Source: Patescibacteria group bacterium (lineage in GTDB: Bacteria > Patescibacteriota > Minisyncoccia > UBA6257 > GWB1-50-10). From it: 64,000 bases of DNA. Location of the stretch: the NCBI GenBank assembly GCA_024239035.1, contig JANBVK010000001.1, forward strand, positions 42,262-106,261, in the 5' to 3' direction. The notes under the pieces are model-generated. The model ran no database searches. It saw nothing but the letters and a program-made list of their open reading frames with translations, and was not told the origin of the DNA. Positions 7,536 through 56,481 of this stretch are shown one piece after another (position 1 is the first letter of the stretch; every line of letters begins with the position of its first letter). Position numbers and translations under genes: made by a program.

Positions 7536-7573
7536 GTCAATCCCCCACATAAGTACTTATGTGGGGGATTGAC
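7536..7573. promoter_or_regulatory. 38-bp perfect palindrome (gtcaatcccccacataagt|acttatgtgggggattgac) overlapping a TTGACA -35-like hexamer
   Basis: Read directly; same CCACATA..TATGTGG core as three other palindromes in this window. Confidence 0.5.
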
Positions 7574-7867: not shown

Positions 7868-10845
<2,978 letters not shown>

Positions 10846-18325: not shown

Positions 18326-18394
18326 CGGGGCTTTTTTTTCAAATTTAGAGCGTCTTCACTAGTACCACATATATATGTGGATAAAGTGAAGATC
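18326..18394. repeat. about 65-bp repeat unit (cggggcttttttttcaaatttagagcgtcttcact + imperfect palindrome ..ccacatatatatgtgg..), copy A
   Basis: Near-identical to 19087-19148; palindrome core shared with 7536-7573 and 57860-57893. Confidence 0.7.
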
Positions 18395-19097: not shown

Positions 19098-19148
19098 CAA
19101 ATTTAGAGCGTCTTCACTTCATCCACATATGTGGATGAAGTGAAGATA
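19087..19148. repeat. copy B of the about 65-bp repeat, with perfect 34-bp palindrome cttcacttcatccacat|atgtggatgaagtgaag
   Basis: Read directly. Confidence 0.7.
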
Positions 19149-51148: not shown

Positions 51149-54100
51149 TTATTTCCTCCAATACACCTTAAAATTCTCAATTTCAGAAACTAACTCTTTT
51201 GCCGATTGGCCGTTGTACTGAATAGCTCTATCATCCACATATACATATGCAATGGGTTTCCCTGGGTTCTTTCCCTGCAATTCCAGATTGTGATTGATAA
51301 AATCAAATGGAATTGAAAACTTTTTGCAGTATTTTTCTAAAAATTCATTCCCCCGTGTTGAATGAATCAAGATCCGGTATCCCCTCTCCCTTAATGTTTT
51401 GATTGTCTCTACTACCTCCTGTATTGGCTCTTTAATATCGTCCGGGGACACGAAACCGGTATATTTAGCGATTGTTCCGTCAAAATCAAAAGCAATAATT
51501 CTTTCTTTAGGCACAGGGTTAATTCTACTATAACAGTCAAACGAGTGAACCGATACATTAGGGATTCTTTGGAATATTTCTTTGACTTCTGATAAATTCT
51601 TCGCCTTATCATTGTCAACAACCAGTAAAATCCCGTGCGACGCGCCGAAACCGTATATGTATCGGCTCATACTGACATACGAGGGAGATCGATCTATTTT
51701 TGTACCTTTGAGATCAGTACTGGAGGTGAGTTTAGTTTCGACCACAATGGGGCCAACGAAACCATATCTAACAAGGAAGTCTACCTTTTTACCGTCAAGT
51801 AGTTCTACCTCTCTATCTACATCAACTTCAAAGCCACGTTTTAACATAATTTGTTCGATTTTCGATTTGAGAGTCTTCTGAATAAGCTTCTCGTACGCCT
51901 GCTGTTTCGCGTCGTAAACCTTTTCACCAAGTATGAGGTCGTACGCGCCCTCGCCCTCAATCCACCGCCTCAAGTCTGTTTCCAGAGCGTCTTGAAGCTG
52001 TCTAAATAGGTCTGTAGAGGTTAATATCTTCTTATCATCATACGCTCGGGCATCATTGTATTTCTTTATTGCTTCTGAAATATTACGGGGTTTGCCTAAA
52101 TAGCCTAGATAGGACCGCCGGAGGTTTATCATCCGACTGGCAAGCCAATTCGCTCCGTCTCGGTCTTTCATTTCGGCAATTTTTCTCTCAAGCTGCCGCA
52201 GGGGATCGTAAACACGTTCGTCCTTTAGATTATCAAAGTATGCGTACACTATGCTCCAAAGATACTCCGCATACGCCTGAAACTCCTTGCTCCGGGCGAA
52301 TACACCCATGGCTTCCTCCAATAATTTAAGGTAGTCTGGTTCATAGCCATGGTGTTTGAGATCCATGAGTGGCTTAGCAAAACTCTTGCTGTGCTCTATT
52401 TCTTCTTCAAGACTATTTACTTTGTGCATGCCTGGGAGTCGTATGAATGCTGCTGCCCTTTGAACCACTTCACGCAACCGCCACTTGATTGCCTCTGCGT
52501 CACCCTGGGAAGTAATGAGGAGCCCATTGGCAATGTAGGCAAGTTTTTTCTCGTCCTCATTTTTACTTTCCTTGTAGAGGTTGAATATTTCTTTAAGGAA
52601 GGTGGGGTCAGAAGAAAGCGTACCAACGACGGTGAGTGATTGCTCCCGAGTGTATCTGTCGAGAGCGGATTCTTTAATGAAACCTTTTAGAATAGGGATA
52701 GCTTCAACGACATGATATTGCTCTACTGCCTCCACGAAGCTAGAAGTCATATGTTGCCAGAGATCCGATTTTCTACTTTTGTACACCTTAAGCACTCCCT
52801 CCATTTCTCCGGGCTTTATATCTTTTACTAACTCAAAGATAGTTTTGAGTTCGTCGTTGTAAGCAAAGGGAATGAAATTGAGGATATTCTGCCGAAAAGG
52901 GGTTATATCAATTTCAAGATGCTTTGCGGTAACGAGAGCGTCACCGAACACGAACACTGAACTACTGGTCGTATAAGTCTTGGAGCCGTCGTGTTGCGCT
53001 GTGATGGTAAGATCGTGCTTTACGGGGTCAACGAATTTGAAAATCGTACCTGTGATGAGTTCGGCAAGACGCTTTTTCTCATCGGTCGACACGAGGGGTT
53101 CTAGGCACTTGATATTTTTATTGTAAAACTCAAATACGGAATTACTGAATTTCCCTGGATTAGGTTCCAAAAGTGTCCGAAATTGTTGCAGGAGCTTTTC
53201 ATTCTGCATTTCGGTATGCGTATCCGGTTTTGCGCGTGCCTCCTCCCACTGCTTATATTCCTCGGAGAGCAGGGACCGGCCAGCTTCGTATATCTCATTA
53301 GCCCCTTCTCTTTTCGAGAATTTCATCCTTGACATGACTGAAGCCGCGGAGTCTTTCTCTCCCATTGCAATCATTACTTCGATATAGCGCGGCACGTCTT
53401 CTTTCTCAATAACCTCCGCAAAAAATCTGTGCGCGAAATACAGACCAGTTTTGCCATCCTCGCTTTTCTTTATACGCTCGACCATTTCGGTGACGAAATT
53501 CGGGTCGCCCCTCCGCAGAAGTTTCCACAGACCAACGATAAACGTGGAGTGCTCCGCGTCATGTGCGATGTTGTAGTTTACGGAGCGCACCAGCGTCTCC
53601 TTGCACAGCTTTTTTATTTCGTCGTCAAGAACAGCTTCGATGTGTTCAACAAGTACGTGGTCTTCATCCTGGAATATCCGCGTATCGTTGATGAACTCGC
53701 GCCGGAAGTTCTCATCTACGTTGTACGTTTTTAAAAAGCTCTCTATCGAAGCTCTTTTCTTTAATGCGAAAATACCGTACCTACCGTGGAATTCGTTTCT
53801 CCTGATAGCCTCGAAAAAGTAACCAAGGGATTTTGGATTTTCAGGATTGAGCTCCACACACATATCGAGAAATTCCCTCCTTACAAGCTCGTCCGACTCC
53901 ATGAGATTGGGCAGTTCATCTATGACCGACGGATCACGCAGCCATGTGAGCGCCAGGAGCGCGTGCCGCTGCAGCACGCCGTTTTCGTTTTTGTCGCCCG
54001 CGTACTCGATGAGTTTGCCGCGCCAATATGACCGATCTAACGAGACACCCCGTCTAAACAGGTAAGCGATCACGTAGACGATGTTTCCGAGCGGCACGAA

Positions 54101-55504
54101 ACGAGCAGCATTTTTTTCTTTATCCGCTTTTGTGATTCCCGCTTTAAGTTTTCCCTCAAGCGTGTTGTCGAAAAAGCTTGGTAATGCTGAAGTGAGTTGG
54201 CCGGGCAACCATTGCAGAGTTCGCTGATGGTAATCCATAGCAAGTATAAATATCTGACGTCGGAGTTCCAATGGTACGTTGCGCGGATCTACCCTACTTA
54301 GAAACACCAAGAAACCCTCGTCGATAAGCTTGAATTGTGTGCCGCGCAGGCCCGAAAAATCAACAAGTTGTCCGAGTAAATCCGGCCGCATGTCTACCAA
54401 GAACGTCAGCGCGTTAAACCATGTTGGGTACATTTCTTTAGCGTCAGGGTCGATTGCAAAGCCAGCCGCCGCCCGGTTTGGATCGGGAAAGCGCGATATC
54501 TCTTTGGCGGCGAGATACTCTTGAAACTCCGTATTATCAAACTCGACCGTGTCCACATTATTTTTCAGCAGAGATTTATCGAAGAAAATTTCAAGTTCAA
54601 TTTGTGTGAGAGCCACAAGTTTTAGGTCAGATTTTATTTCGTCGAAAAAAGTCATAAGCTCATCCTTAGAGATTACATTTGTTTGGTATATCTCCATGGT
54701 GAGGGCGAGTTTTTCCAGCACACGCTTTATGATGGCACGTTTGTCAGCATTAAGTTTCTTATCTTCGAGTTCAAGCTTCGAGTAAATGAAATACTCGAAA
54801 AGTTTGTTGCGTGAGACCTCAGCAGCGGCTGGGATCCCTTTTTCCTCCAAGAATTTCTCCAGATATGAAAGGTATCGAGGTATCTGTATAACGAGCATTC
54901 TATGACTGAAAGGCATAATCCGACCCAGCAACGCGTCTATGTCGCTATCGGAATGTTTCGCTGCTCGTAGATACTCCCGTACCTGCCCTTGAGTGAATGG
55001 AGAAATAGTTATGAAACGGTAGTTGGGAAATGACGTGGCGTGTTGGTTAATAAAAATCCACCGAGAGGACAAAAATATAGGTAGGTTGGGATACCTAGTG
55101 GAAACCTCCTCGATTTTTTGCAGAACCGCTGGAAACAAGCTTGACTGAACCTCGTCCAGAGCATCTAGTAAGAGCGCTTTTGGTGCTTCAGTTTCAGTCG
55201 TCACAAAAATGTCAATGCGATCCATGGCGTTTGGTTGTCGAAGACCAACCAGCTCCGTCACACACCCATCCGTATCAAGTTGATCCTTTATCTTGCCGAG
55301 AAGCATAGATTTGCCAACGCCCGGTTCTCCCACAATTAGAGTACGCTGGCCTTTAATAATATCTACAATTCCAAGGCGTTCCTCGTCGTCAAAAATTGAG
55401 ACTCCTTGGAATTTATCGTAAAACTCCTTAGCCTCGGCGAATATCGAGTAGATCTTTGTGATAGGGATGATGTATTTATCAGCACTATTAATTTTTGTAG
55501 TCAT
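51149..55504 (-). CDS. 1451-aa NACHT/STAND-type NTPase fused to C-terminal PD-(D/E)xK nuclease-like and HAD phosphatase-like modules
   Basis: Walker A GEPGVGKS; Walker B LLLDALDEV; FLSSR (TSR-like); about 900-aa helical repeat region; VDFLV...VVETK (D..E-x-K); IIAFDFDGT / ILIHST / GKP...YVYVDDRA (HAD motifs I-IV). Confidence 0.8.
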   Translation of the reverse strand: MTTKINSADKYIIPITKIYSIFAEAKEFYDKFQGVSIFDDEERLGIVDIIKGQRTLIVGEPGVGKSMLLGKIKDQLDTDGCVTELVGLRQPNAMDRIDIFVTTETEAPKALLLDALDEVQSSLFPAVLQKIEEVSTRYPNLPIFLSSRWIFINQHATSFPNYRFITISPFTQGQVREYLRAAKHSDSDIDALLGRIMPFSHRMLVIQIPRYLSYLEKFLEEKGIPAAAEVSRNKLFEYFIYSKLELEDKKLNADKRAIIKRVLEKLALTMEIYQTNVISKDELMTFFDEIKSDLKLVALTQIELEIFFDKSLLKNNVDTVEFDNTEFQEYLAAKEISRFPDPNRAAAGFAIDPDAKEMYPTWFNALTFLVDMRPDLLGQLVDFSGLRGTQFKLIDEGFLVFLSRVDPRNVPLELRRQIFILAMDYHQRTLQWLPGQLTSALPSFFDNTLEGKLKAGITKADKEKNAARFVPLGNIVYVIAYLFRRGVSLDRSYWRGKLIEYAGDKNENGVLQRHALLALTWLRDPSVIDELPNLMESDELVRREFLDMCVELNPENPKSLGYFFEAIRRNEFHGRYGIFALKKRASIESFLKTYNVDENFRREFINDTRIFQDEDHVLVEHIEAVLDDEIKKLCKETLVRSVNYNIAHDAEHSTFIVGLWKLLRRGDPNFVTEMVERIKKSEDGKTGLYFAHRFFAEVIEKEDVPRYIEVMIAMGEKDSAASVMSRMKFSKREGANEIYEAGRSLLSEEYKQWEEARAKPDTHTEMQNEKLLQQFRTLLEPNPGKFSNSVFEFYNKNIKCLEPLVSTDEKKRLAELITGTIFKFVDPVKHDLTITAQHDGSKTYTTSSSVFVFGDALVTAKHLEIDITPFRQNILNFIPFAYNDELKTIFELVKDIKPGEMEGVLKVYKSRKSDLWQHMTSSFVEAVEQYHVVEAIPILKGFIKESALDRYTREQSLTVVGTLSSDPTFLKEIFNLYKESKNEDEKKLAYIANGLLITSQGDAEAIKWRLREVVQRAAAFIRLPGMHKVNSLEEEIEHSKSFAKPLMDLKHHGYEPDYLKLLEEAMGVFARSKEFQAYAEYLWSIVYAYFDNLKDERVYDPLRQLERKIAEMKDRDGANWLASRMINLRRSYLGYLGKPRNISEAIKKYNDARAYDDKKILTSTDLFRQLQDALETDLRRWIEGEGAYDLILGEKVYDAKQQAYEKLIQKTLKSKIEQIMLKRGFEVDVDREVELLDGKKVDFLVRYGFVGPIVVETKLTSSTDLKGTKIDRSPSYVSMSRYIYGFGASHGILLVVDNDKAKNLSEVKEIFQRIPNVSVHSFDCYSRINPVPKERIIAFDFDGTIAKYTGFVSPDDIKEPIQEVVETIKTLRERGYRILIHSTRGNEFLEKYCKKFSIPFDFINHNLELQGKNPGKPIAYVYVDDRAIQYNGQSAKELVSEIENFKVYWRK

Positions 55505-55615
55505 ATTTTTACTTCATTAATCCTCCAATCCCCCACTCTAGAACACTATAAATACAAAAATATCCCGCTACAAGAGCGGGATATCAAACCATCCTAACCT
55601 CCTCGCCATAATCCC

Positions 55616-55654
55616 GAAATACGTATTTTAATACGTATTTAAATACGTACTTTT
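55616..55654. promoter_or_regulatory. three tandem AATACGTATT palindromes (12-13 bp period)
   Basis: aaatacgtatttt aatacgtattta aatacgtactttt, read directly, upstream of the STAND gene. Confidence 0.5.
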
Positions 55655-55689
55655 ATTATACCTTTCCAACCCCTCAACAAACCAGAGAA

Positions 55690-55800
55690 TGATATGACGC
55701 GTCATATCACCTCTTCCACCACTCTCCAGAAACAGTATGACATGTCATACTGTTCATCTTCACAACAAATAGGGGTGTGATGACATGTCATCACACCCCT
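55690..55800. promoter_or_regulatory. three perfect palindromes (20, 24, 30 bp) sharing core ATGAC-NN-GTCAT with centres 43 bp apart
   Basis: tgatatgacgcgtcatatca (55690-55709); aacagtatgacatgtcatactgtt (55731-55754); aggggtgtgatgacatgtcatcacacccct (55771-55800). Confidence 0.6.
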
Positions 55801-56062
55801 TTAAACCAACCATTCGCTAACCCACTACAAGAGCGGGTTATTTTTATTAATACTGGGCAGGGAAATCGAACAAAATAATTTGACTAGCAAATTATTTTTT
55901 TAAAACCCTCGGTTTTAAATCCGTTGCACTCATTCCTACACAGGGGAACCTCGAACTTTCCCCCGACCCCCTGCCTACCGGCAGGCAGGCCTTTCGTGTT
56001 CGAATCATTGCTGCCGGGTACTTCAACTCACTGCGCTCGCTCAGCACGGGCAGGGATTCTCA

Positions 56063-56305
56063 CTACTCTCTTTTAACTAAATCTAACTTCTTTTCTCTGC
56101 GCCAACCTTTTATCTGTGCCTCACGTTTTAATGCCTCATTCTTCGTCTTGAATGTTTCTGTGTAAATAATCTTTTCTACTTTATGCGATGCAGTATAGTG
56201 ACCACCAATCTTGTCTTTGTGTTCCTTAAGTCTCCGTTCAATATCATTCGTGATACCGGTATATAAGCTAGCGTCTTCACATTGAACAATGTAGACATAG
56301 TACAT
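56063..56305 (-). CDS. GIY-YIG nuclease family small protein (UPF0213-like)
   Basis: MYYVYIVQCEDASLYTGITNDIERRLKEH (GIY..YIG with R and E); 80 aa. Confidence 0.75.
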   Translation of the reverse strand: MYYVYIVQCEDASLYTGITNDIERRLKEHKDKIGGHYTASHKVEKIIYTETFKTKNEALKREAQIKGWRREKKLDLVKRE

Positions 56306-56410
56306 AATTTGAAAGAGGTCCTTCGGCTTCGCTCAGGACACTTCGCCTCGCGTTATTGTTGAAGATGGCTTGCACTGAGCGAGCCCTTTATTTAAGGGCG
56401 AGTCGAAGTG

Positions 56411-56481
56411 CTGCCGGGCAGGGATTCGAACCCCGATACCCAGGACCAAAACCTGGTGTCCTACCGTTAGACGACCCGGCA
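56411..56481 (-). tRNA. tRNA-Gln (anticodon TTG), no encoded CCA
   Basis: Minus-strand cloverleaf TGCCGGG...CCAGG-TTTTGGT-CCTGG...GGTTCGAATCCC...CCCGGCA; U1:A72 typical of bacterial tRNA-Gln. Confidence 0.75.

What the first reader, a model, noticed from the sequence alone, without database searches (positions are those of the whole stretch)
55562..55846. Phased array of perfect palindromes upstream of the STAND gene
Within 240 bp upstream of the STAND start codon there are several distinct palindromic elements. First, an 8-bp-stem hairpin atcccgct-acaag-agcgggat at 55562-55582, whose stem-loop recurs in degenerate form followed by a T-run at 55821-55846. Second, three tandem AATACGTATT palindromes at 55616-55654. 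Third, three perfect palindromes of increasing length: 20 bp, 24 bp and 30 bp. All three share the core ATGAC-NN-GTCAT. Their centres sit at about 55699.5, 55742.5 and 55785.5, which is exactly 43 bp apart, or about 4 helical turns. Zero-spacer perfect palindromes with helical phasing are what one expects for cooperative binding of a dimeric regulator on one DNA face. They are less likely to be RNA hairpins. No cognate regulator gene is evident nearby. So the system is either controlled in trans, or these are iterons or recombination sites of a mobile element.
Basis: seen in the sequence. Interest (0 to 1): 0.7.

Follow-up and report, generated by a model that had tools for sequence, protein, structure and literature searches.

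The report
Orphan palindrome array beside defence-like gene
Three perfect DNA palindromes spaced exactly 43 bases apart lie upstream of a large ATPase gene in a tiny-genome (Patescibacteria) bacterium. They match a widespread protein-binding motif also used by a plasmid replication protein, but they are not a conserved switch for that gene.

Summary
In 55560-55846 there are two copies of a 24-nt hairpin, three AT-rich 12-bp repeats, and three perfect palindromes of 20, 24 and 30 bp. The palindromes share ATGAC-NN-GTCAT at exactly 43-bp spacing. None of these motifs recurs in 81 kb of this genome.

The regulatory reading is only partly supported:
- Six homologous loci of the NTPase family (46-73% identical; loci read at 61-72%) lack such palindromes.
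- The core (C/A)TATGAC-NN-GTCATA recurs in pairs or arrays in many metagenomic contigs. Spacing varies (12-170 bp), so helical phasing is not conserved.
- In other Patescibacteria the core sits inside mosaic intergenic repeats, often within 250-610 bp of tRNA genes.
- In one small plasmid the same half-site forms the 21-bp iterons and the two promoter palindromes of a Rep_3 replication-initiator gene.

Best reading (confidence about 0.4): these are binding sites for a dimeric DNA-binding protein made elsewhere. They lie in a 290-bp cassette, possibly derived from a mobile element, bounded by terminator-type hairpins in the variable region next to tRNA-Gln.

Two features are unexplained and keep a transcribed-RNA reading alive: the palindrome arms differ between copies yet stay perfectly complementary, and the spacers are almost free of G on the + strand.

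The parts
55560..55584 (-). Hairpin 1: 10-bp stem, 5-nt loop, followed on the - strand by TTTTTGTATTT. Terminator-type hairpin 55 nt upstream of the NTPase ATG. Its loop and 3' arm overlap candidate -35 boxes.
   Evidence: terminator-like on the - strand, 11 pairs; DNA fold -10.5 kcal/mol, z -8.5. The same 17-mer occurs in 15 IMG/VR contigs, 13 of them with an A-run on the equivalent side, i.e. used as an intrinsic terminator.
55617..55658 (.). Three tandem AT-rich 12-bp units (AATACGTATTTT), each holding a 10-bp palindrome. The third is degenerate.
   Evidence: TRF: period 12, 3.1 copies. The motif is absent from the rest of the 81 kb read and absent as a pair from IMG/VR.
55655..55660 (-). 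Perfect TATAAT hexamer on the - strand between the palindrome array and the 12-mers. Candidate -10 box with no good -35.
   Evidence: Read directly from the sequence. This is inference only.
55545..55587 (-). Candidate promoters of the NTPase gene overlapping hairpin 1: TTGATA-17-GATATT (55587-55559) and TTGTAG-17-TATAGT (55573-55545).
   Evidence: for the first (9/12 matches). The second was read (8/12). These are consensus matches only.
55690..55709 (.). Palindrome A, 20 bp: TGATATGACG|CGTCATATCA.
55731..55754 (.). Palindrome B, 24 bp: AACAGTATGACA|TGTCATACTGTT.
55771..55800 (.). Palindrome C, 30 bp: AGGGGTGTGATGACA|TGTCATCACACCCCT.
   Evidence: On the - strand it is flagged as weakly terminator-like.
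55585..55817 (+). Spacers between the elements. They are C/A-rich and almost G-free on the + strand (C 49, G 6) and share a CTTCACAACAAA-like motif, i.e. a diverged 43-bp tandem repeat.
   Evidence: skew -0.78; 0.02% of windows are as extreme; alignment of the three units.
55818..55846 (+). Hairpin 2: direct copy of hairpin 1 with one compensatory pair change and one A.C mismatch (G.U on the - strand). Followed by a T-run on the + strand.
   Evidence: (88% identity, 257 bp apart).
51149..55504 (-). 1451-aa P-loop NTPase (weak NACHT/AAA_16/DUF8371 matches) with an extra C-terminal HAD-like domain. This is the gene downstream of the cassette.
   Evidence: The N-terminus agrees with homologs.
55855..56481 (-). 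Context: tRNA-Gln (56410-56481), an 80-aa GIY-YIG gene (56063-56305), and partial repeats of the tRNA 3' end (56047-56059 exact; 55855-55876 degenerate). This is a variable, insertion-prone region.

Best explanation
The three palindromes are most likely double-stranded DNA binding sites, each built from two inverted TATGAC half-sites. The binding protein would be a sequence-specific dimer that is not encoded next to them.

What the sites belong to:
- They fall in a widespread site family, (C/A)TATGAC-NN-GTCATA(G/T).
- The clearest instance of that family is the iteron and operator set of a Rep_3 (winged-helix) plasmid replication initiator.
- In other Patescibacteria the family appears as pairs or arrays inside mosaic intergenic repeats near tRNA genes.

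What is in this window:
- The array is a diverged threefold duplication of a 43-bp unit.
- Next to it lie three AT-rich 12-mers.
- Together they form a 290-bp non-coding cassette closed at each end by a copy of a terminator-type hairpin.
- The cassette sits in the insertion-prone region beside tRNA-Gln and upstream of a STAND-like NTPase.

I read the cassette as a control or replication-type region, possibly derived from a mobile element, that has lost or never had its protein gene here. Whatever binds it would sit about 160-250 bp upstream of the likeliest NTPase promoter. It could modulate that promoter, but this is incidental rather than a conserved feature of the gene family.

Shown: the motifs, their statistics, their family, the plasmid precedent, and their absence from homologous loci.
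Inferred: DNA-level binding here, the trans-acting protein, and the mobile-element origin.
For: (1) The core is far above chance and unique to this spot in 81 kb.

(2) Database scans for two cores 20-50 bp apart gave more than 119 genome loci and 55 metagenome loci. Flanking bases T(-1) and C/A(-2) are conserved and the centre takes 13 different dinucleotides. That pattern fits a dimeric DNA-binding protein rather than a hairpin loop.

(3) L187, L159 and L027 are one plasmid carrying, in order: a DnaA box; an AT-rich stretch; 3.5 iterons of 21 bp (TTAACTATGACATTTACACTG); two palindromes (TTAACTATGAC-AA/TT-GTCATAGTTAA); and a Rep_3 gene about 50 bp further on. The Rep has about 2000 plasmid homologs.

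(4) In a Paenibacillus locus and in L136, two sites bracket a promoter-like region in the manner of operators.

(5) Jorgensenbacteria-like and Paceibacterota contigs carry the sites at several loci per genome, at synteny breakpoints. Seven of 16 distinct loci lie within 250-610 bp of a tRNA gene, as here.

(6) Homologous NTPase loci lack the array, and one homolog lies between a tRNA and a serine recombinase. So the gene rides on islands whose upstream regions vary.

(7) An exact 22-mer from 55968-55989 recurs about 150 bp from a PAL array in L152. This links the whole neighbourhood to the same kind of repeat-rich region.
Against: - No rep gene or other DNA-binding gene was found nearby. Pfam was run on nine flanking ORFs (48.6-60.2 kb), and tblastn with the plasmid Rep found nothing in the 64-kb window.
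- There is no DnaA box in 55500-56100.
- The sites are palindromes 43 bp apart, not 17-22-bp direct iterons.
- Outside the 12-14-bp core, the three arms differ (TGAT, AACAGT, AGGGGTGTG) yet stay perfectly complementary: 19 extra paired positions. A protein that reads only the core does not explain this. It points either to hairpin or cruciform selection, or to templated (fold-back) mutation.
- The spacers are almost G-free on the + strand. A pure duplex binding-site array does not predict this.
- Both imperfect stem positions are A.C on the + strand and G.U on the - strand, as expected for a - strand RNA.
- Only about 10% of the genome could be read, so copy number is unknown.
Confidence: 0.4

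Rival explanations
1. The cassette is transcribed and acts as a structured RNA. It could be a long C-poor 5' leader or attenuator of the NTPase mRNA on the - strand that ends at, or reads through, hairpin 1. Or it could be a roughly 290-nt G-poor small RNA on the + strand that starts at hairpin 1 and ends at the hairpin 2 terminator. Its single-stranded CCUCC-like spacers could pair with ribosome-binding sites.
For: - Extreme strand asymmetry confined to 55505-55817 (C 49 / G 6 in the spacers).
- Arms covary while their sequence diverges.
- The hairpin 1/2 pair shows one compensatory T-A to A-T change.
- The two mismatches are G.U only on the - strand.
- Hairpin 1 plus a U-run on the - strand and hairpin 2 plus a U-run on the + strand are terminator-like.
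- Folding z-scores are -6.4 (- strand) and -10.2 (+ strand).
- A TATAAT on the - strand at 55660-55655 and a TATAAAT on the + strand at 55547-55553 are candidate -10 boxes.
Against: - The conserved part is the paired stem next to a variable 2-nt centre. That is the reverse of what loop-recognising RNA-binding proteins give.
- The same half-site works as non-hairpin direct repeats in a plasmid.
- No Rfam family matches.
- Neither candidate -10 box has a convincing -35.
- Perfect palindromes fold well by construction, so the z-scores say little.
Confidence: 0.25
2. The palindromes are REP/BIME- or NIME-like interspersed repeats, selfish or structural. They would have no dedicated role at this locus and happen to have been amplified three times here.
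For: - In Jorgensenbacteria-like contigs, the same palindromes flank conserved 30-130-bp segments in mosaic order.
- They occur at several loci per genome and sit at points where gene order differs between related contigs.
- Two Paceibacterota loci lie at gene 3' ends.
- This genome has a general excess of long perfect palindromes: 7536-7573, 19111-19146 and L194 4693-4710.
Against: - No second copy in 81 kb of this genome.
- The 14-bp core is conserved across lineages with 33-57% GC. Species-specific REP families co-evolving with their transposase (my own knowledge) are not conserved in this way.
- No RAYT or IS200-type gene was seen, though the genome is mostly unread.
Confidence: 0.2
3. One reading: a dedicated, helically phased operator or activator array through which a trans-encoded dimeric regulator controls the STAND gene.
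For: - Exact 43-bp spacing.
- Position upstream of the gene; with the TATAAT at 55660-55655 the centres would fall near -51, -94 and -137.
- No other gene is in a position to be served by the array.
Against: - Not conserved in six distinct homologous loci. Those loci instead share a different promoter-like motif (L003/L004).
- Spacing is not conserved in the motif family.
- A terminator-type hairpin lies between the array and the gene.
- The constant period is explained by tandem duplication.
Confidence: 0.1
4. A guide-RNA or antitoxin-type repeat array: either a TIGR stem-loop array, or a type III toxin-antitoxin-like 'repeats - terminator - effector gene' unit in which the repeat RNA restrains the NTPase.
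For: - On the - strand the order is three 43-nt units, three 12-nt units, a terminator, then the gene.
- TIGR stem-loop arrays are common in Patescibacteria. [quoted passage not shown]
Against: - No Nop-domain (Tas) protein and no ToxN/AbiQ-type protein among the neighbours.
- The units lack two 8-12-nt spacers flanked by box C/D, and the spacers between palindromes are only 16-21 nt.
- The units are not near-identical, unlike known antitoxin repeats.
Confidence: 0.03

Closest known systems
Iteron/operator region of Rep_3 (RepA/RepE/pi-type) plasmid replicons
   Same: - The half-site TATGAC is the same as in the Rep_3 plasmid L187/L159/L027, where inverted half-sites with a 2-bp centre form palindromes over the rep promoter.
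- An AT-rich repeated stretch lies beside the sites.
- There are several sites in a short non-coding region.
   Different: - No rep gene, no DnaA box and no 17-22-bp direct iterons.
- Three palindromes at 43-bp spacing, rather than one or two at the promoter.
- Arms outside the core differ between copies.
- The location is chromosomal.
F-plasmid sopC centromere (43-bp repeats each holding a 7-2-7 palindrome bound by SopB); from my own knowledge, not tested
   Same: Tandem 43-bp units, each containing an inverted repeat with a 2-bp centre.
   Different: Only three diverged units; a different sequence; no ParA/ParB-type genes next to it.
REP/BIME of enterobacteria and NIME/dRS3 of Neisseria (mosaic intergenic repeats built around short palindromes); from my own knowledge
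   Same: In related Patescibacteria the palindromes delimit conserved segments in mosaic order, lie between genes and near tRNA genes, and coincide with rearrangement points.
   Different: The core is conserved across distant lineages; the palindromes are perfect with no spacer; this genome shows a single locus in 81 kb; no associated transposase is known.
Rho-independent terminators
   Same: Hairpin 1 (- strand) and hairpin 2 (+ strand) have GC-rich stems followed by U-runs. The identical stem-loop serves as a terminator in many phage contigs.
   Different: The two copies are direct repeats but terminate in opposite directions, facing out of the cassette. Palindromes A and B have no U-run.
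TIGR-Tas stem-loop arrays (PMC12045711)
   Same: Occur in Patescibacteria; tandem units with variable but palindromic sequences; a terminator at the end of the array.
   Different: No Tas gene adjacent, no paired spacers with box C/D, and a unit length of 43 rather than about 36.

Membership tests
Rep_3 iteron replicon (origin plus rep operator) | Adjacent gene for a Rep_3 initiator | tested here: not met
   Pfam on nine neighbouring ORFs gave no Rep_3. tblastn with the L187 Rep found nothing in the window.
Rep_3 iteron replicon (origin plus rep operator) | Tandem direct repeats (iterons) of about 17-22 bp | tested here: not met
   Only palindromic sites at a 43-bp period. TRF finds just the 12-bp AT-rich repeat.
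Rep_3 iteron replicon (origin plus rep operator) | Inverted repeat made of iteron half-sites (dimer operator) | tested here: met
   Palindromes A and B carry the TATGAC-NN-GTCATA core found in the two L187 operators (C has GATGAC). In L187 the same half-site also builds the iterons.
Rep_3 iteron replicon (origin plus rep operator) | DnaA box and AT-rich unwinding region beside the sites | tested here: inconclusive
   No DnaA box with one mismatch or fewer in 55500-56100. Three AT-rich 12-mers are present at 55617-55658.
REP/BIME-type interspersed repeats | Many dispersed copies in the same genome | tested here: inconclusive
   None in the other 81 kb read, about 10% of the genome. Several loci per genome in related Patescibacteria.
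REP/BIME-type interspersed repeats | Associated RAYT / IS200-like transposase | not testable with these tools
   The rest of the 729-kb scaffold could not be fetched.
Operator array dedicated to the downstream gene | Sites conserved upstream of orthologous genes | tested here: not met
   L003, L004/L005, L188/L189, L190, L192 and L193 have no perfect palindrome with arms of 7 bp or more in about 520 bp upstream.
Operator array dedicated to the downstream gene | Sites overlap or adjoin the promoter | tested here: inconclusive
   Only consensus-level promoters are predicted. The sites would lie at -51/-94/-137 or at -161/-204/-247, depending on which promoter is real.
Intrinsic terminator (hairpins 1 and 2) | GC-rich stem-loop immediately followed by a U-run on the transcribed strand | tested here: met
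   Hairpin 1 on the - strand. The same 17-mer with an adjacent A/T-run occurs in 13 of 15 phage contigs. Hairpin 2 on the + strand has a T-run but one A.C mismatch.
TIGR array | Adjacent Nop-domain Tas gene | tested here: not met
   No Nop domain in the neighbours. The definition is taken from PMC12045711.
TIGR array | Units with two 8-12-nt spacers flanked by box C (CCA) and box D (UG) | tested here: not met
   The spacers between palindromes are 16-21 nt and the palindromes have no internal unpaired region.
Type III toxin-antitoxin | Near-identical tandem RNA repeats, a terminator, then a ToxN/AbiQ-type endoribonuclease gene | tested here: not met
   The order repeats-terminator-gene is present. 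However, the units share only the core and the gene is a 1451-aa NTPase.
ParB/SopB-type centromere | Adjacent partition ATPase and centromere-binding protein genes | tested here: not met
   None among the neighbours.

The most novel reading that the evidence does not exclude
TATGAC-RY-GTCATA could be a previously undescribed DNA signal, conserved across Patescibacteria and read by a still unidentified chromosomal protein, perhaps a domesticated Rep-like winged-helix factor. The signal would mark tRNA-proximal mosaic repeats and rearrangement or insertion hot spots. At this locus it would be combined with a strand-asymmetric, terminator-bounded transcript to gate expression of a defence-type NTPase.
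Probability: 0.2. Interest if true: 0.7.

Novelty: new variant of a known kind. Interest (0 to 1): 0.5.

Why it matters
Almost nothing is known about gene regulation and mobile DNA in Patescibacteria. This work identifies a 14-16-bp palindromic motif that:
- is shared by distant members of the group,
- tends to lie near tRNA genes and at breakpoints of gene order, and
- matches the binding site of a plasmid replication initiator.

If a protein binding this motif can be identified, it would offer a way to study genome plasticity, plasmid or island biology, and control of defence genes in these uncultured organisms.

At this locus, the perfect palindromes with unrelated arms and the almost G-free spacers also make a clean test case. 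They can help distinguish whether such palindromes are kept by selection on hairpins or generated by fold-back (template-switch) mutation.

Tried and rejected
- **Rfam.** Gathering and permissive thresholds on the window, plus ten related loci, returned only tRNA and rRNA.
- **BLAST of 55505-56062 against phage and plasmid collections.** No match.
- **Neighbour-gene analysis.** 111 ORFs next to arrays in 36 loci showed no recurrent Pfam family, and all-against-all BLAST found no shared family. So no cognate protein could be named by guilt by association. ORFs beside the TA-centred arrays have no Pfam match.
- **GIY-YIG as partner.** GIY-YIG genes accompany tRNA genes, not the arrays.
- **Literature search for the motif.** It returned only the pSK41 ArtA ribbon-helix-helix site ACATGACATG, which is an analogy and not a relative. 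A search for a Patescibacteria LexA motif gave nothing relevant.
- **TIGR arrays, type III antitoxin repeats, resolvase res sites, serine-integrase att sites, parS and matS.** All were considered. They were rejected for lack of the partner gene, or for wrong half-site geometry.
- **Assembly artefact.** Rejected. Two assemblies (apparently from the same sample) agree, and de Bruijn contigs merely break at the longest palindromes.
- **Hairpin 17-mer in phage contigs.** The 15 hits are about the number expected by chance, but the adjacent A-runs show they are real terminators.
- **Whole-genome copy number.** It could not be obtained.

Full report
**What is there**

The 560-bp gap between an 80-aa GIY-YIG gene (56063-56305, - strand) and a 1451-aa P-loop NTPase gene (51149-55504, - strand) holds the following, read on the + strand:
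- Hairpin 1 at 55560-55584, with a 10-bp stem and loop ACAAG.
- Three tandem AT-rich 12-mers at 55617-55658, each built around AATACGTATT; the third copy has one mismatch.
- Three perfect palindromes with no spacer: A at 55690-55709, B at 55731-55754, C at 55771-55800.
- Hairpin 2 at 55818-55841, a direct copy of hairpin 1 (88% identical), followed by TTATTTTTATT.

The cores ATGACNNGTCAT start at 55694, 55737 and 55780, exactly 43 bp apart. Three cores are found where 0.07 are expected. Arms of 12 and 15 bp never appeared in shuffled sequence.

The hairpin stem is 10 bp, one 10-mer is imperfect, and the features span 56-342 bp upstream of the ATG.

**Where it comes from**

The NTPase protein is found on a 729-kb metagenomic scaffold annotated as a Patescibacteria group bacterium. 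tRNA-Gln lies at 56410-56481 on the same strand. Its 3' end is repeated after the GIY-YIG gene: an exact 13-mer at 56047-56059, then fragments down to 55855. So the cassette sits in an insertion-prone region next to a tRNA gene.

**Is it tied to the gene?**

The NTPase belongs to a large family, with 333 hits and best identities of 46-73%. I read six distinct homologous loci: L003, L004/L005, L188/L189, L190, L192 and L193. None has a perfect palindrome with arms of 7 bp or more in about 520 bp upstream.

L003 and L004 instead share a promoter-like TTGACGAATTRAG...TTATTGTA. L190 lies between a tRNA and a large serine recombinase. The array is therefore not a conserved control element of this gene family, and the family travels on islands.

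**Is it a genome-wide repeat?**

In the window plus 17 kb of flanks (81 kb, about a tenth of the genome), none of the three motif types recurs. The rest of the genome could not be fetched.

**The motif family**

A stricter pattern found 55 metagenomic loci. Across 147 distinct sites:
- The conserved unit is (C/A)TATGAC-NN-GTCATA(G/T).
- The central two bases take 13 different values.
- Spacing ranges from 12 to about 170 bp, so 43 bp is local, not a family trait.

Conserved half-sites around an unconstrained 2-bp centre are what a dimeric DNA-binding protein produces. An RNA hairpin read at its loop would show the opposite pattern.

**A concrete precedent**

L187, L159 and L027 are one small plasmid. 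It carries, in order:
- a perfect DnaA box;
- an AT-rich stretch;
- 3.5 iterons of 21 bp (TTAACTATGACATTTACACTG);
- two palindromes (TTAACTATGAC-AA/TT-GTCATAGTTAA);
- about 50 bp further on, a Rep_3 initiator gene.

The Rep has about 2000 plasmid homologs. This is the textbook arrangement in which initiator monomers bind iterons and dimers bind an inverted repeat at their own promoter (established knowledge of Rep_3 replicons; reviewed in PMC4980987, listed but not read).

So TATGAC is a half-site for a winged-helix protein in at least one system. The same half-site works there as direct repeats that cannot form hairpins.

**Other Patescibacteria**

A Jorgensenbacteria MAG (L038, L047), a Paceibacterota MAG (L073, L086) and many Jorgensenbacteria-like metagenomic contigs carry CTATGAC-RY-GTCATAG in pairs or in groups of up to five.

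In the Jorgensenbacteria-like set, the palindromes delimit conserved 30-130-bp segments in mosaic order. They occur at several loci, and the flanks differ between related contigs, so they sit at rearrangement points.

Seven of 16 distinct loci, including this window, lie within 250-610 bp of a tRNA gene. These contigs are tRNA-rich, so I treat that association as suggestive only.

An exact 22-mer (55968-55989) recurs about 150 bp from the array in L152. Pfam on 111 neighbouring ORFs gave no recurrent family, so no cognate protein could be named.

**The hairpins**

The 17-mer of hairpin 1 occurs in 15 phage contigs. In 13 of these it has an A-run on the same side as here, which means it serves as an intrinsic terminator on the opposite strand.

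Hairpin 1 is therefore a - strand terminator 55 nt upstream of the ATG. Hairpin 2 carries its T-run on the + strand. The two copies thus stop transcription leaving the cassette in either direction.

Candidate promoters for the NTPase overlap hairpin 1: TTGATA-17-GATATT and TTGTAG-17-TATAGT (read). A perfect TATAAT lies on the - strand at 55660-55655.

**Unexplained features**

1. Outside the core, the arms are unrelated between copies (TGAT, AACAGT, AGGGGTGTG) yet perfectly complementary. That is 19 extra paired positions.
2. The period stays at 43 bp while arm length varies and the spacers shrink (21 and 16 nt). The arms therefore grew by replacing spacer sequence, not by insertion.
3. The right arms resemble the C-rich spacers and the left arms are their inverse copies. 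Fold-back (template-switch) copying would give this pattern; so would selection for hairpins.
4. The same tendency holds across the family: 47 of 147 sites have arms of 8 bp or more, with variable sequence.
5. The spacers have C 49 and G 6 on the + strand (skew -0.78; only 0.02% of windows are as extreme). The asymmetry stops at hairpin 2.
6. Both imperfect stem positions are A.C on the + strand and G.U on the - strand.

Features 5 and 6 point to a single-strand (RNA) constraint and keep the RNA reading alive. No Rfam family matches.

**Verdict**

I favour DNA binding sites for a dimeric protein supplied in trans. They sit in a cassette bounded by terminator-type hairpins, possibly derived from a mobile element, next to tRNA-Gln (confidence about 0.4).

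The alternatives are:
- a transcribed structured RNA (0.25);
- REP/BIME-like repeats with no local role (0.2);
- a dedicated phased operator array for the NTPase (0.1);
- TIGR or type III antitoxin-like arrays (0.03). These were considered after reading PMC12045711 and the 2026 preprint and rejected for lack of a Tas or ToxN gene and of paired spacers.

The finding is real and moderately interesting. The locus itself may be a relic. The conserved motif family in Patescibacteria, and the perfect arms with G-free spacers, are not explained by anything I could find described.

Noticed in passing
window 7536-7573: A 38-bp perfect palindrome (GTCAATCCCCCACATAAGT|ACTTATGTGGGGGATTGAC). Its right arm runs into a TTGACA about 300 bp upstream of the 23S rRNA gene (7869-10845), which has no 16S gene beside it. 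A Logan contig breaks exactly at the palindrome's centre.
   Followed up: partly
window 18365-18384 and 19111-19146: A 36-bp perfect palindrome made of two inverted DnaA-box-like TCATCCACA motifs sits exactly where + strand and - strand genes converge. A perfect DnaA box (18376-18384) overlaps a 16-bp palindrome. This may be a replication- or terminus-related site.
   Followed up: partly
window 55855-56481: The 3' end of tRNA-Gln is repeated after the 80-aa GIY-YIG gene: an exact 13-mer at 56047-56059, plus fragments at 56010-56018, 55998-56006 and 55855-55876. The GIY-YIG ORF is flanked by 10-bp inverted repeats GCTCGCTCAG/CTGAGCGAGC. It looks like a small cassette inserted at the tRNA end. 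In L047 and L167 a GIY-YIG homologue also lies within 10 bp of a tRNA-Phe gene.
   Followed up: partly
window 55968-55989; L152 418-440; L195 3594-3609: The GC-rich quasi-palindrome CCCTGCCTACCGGCAGGCAGGC is identical in a distant Jorgensenbacteria-like contig, where it lies about 150 bp from that contig's palindrome array. A related TGCCTGCCGGCAGGCA occurs about 14 kb to the right in this genome.
   Followed up: partly
window 51149-55504 (residues about 1335-1430): This copy of the NTPase has an extra C-terminal HAD-phosphatase-like domain that the roughly 1350-aa homologs lack.
   Followed up: no
window 55584-55592 and 55509-55517 (- strand): Two three-codon mini-ORFs (ATG GTT TGA and ATG AAG TAA) each follow a strong GGAGG-type ribosome-binding site. 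The second ends 4 nt before the NTPase start codon, which has no good ribosome-binding site of its own. Translational coupling is possible.
   Followed up: no
L004 2750-2880: A homologous NTPase locus carries three direct repeats GTCRGATTNTGTCRGATTT upstream of a promoter-like motif that it shares with L003. This is a different, lineage-specific repeat array in the equivalent position.
   Followed up: no
L017, L033, L040, L093, L106: Nitrospirota and related contigs carry pairs of ATGACATGTCAT cores, mostly as AACCATGACATGTCATGGTT, 34 bp apart. In L017, L040 and L106 they lie just after a gene ending in a Fis-type HTH, as sigma-54 activators do. They are probably activator binding sites unrelated to the Patescibacteria family.
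   Followed up: no
whole window: The palindromic hexamers ACATGT and TACGTA are under-represented (7 observed against about 19 expected for each). Yet 2 and 3 copies respectively lie inside the 290-bp cassette.
   Followed up: no
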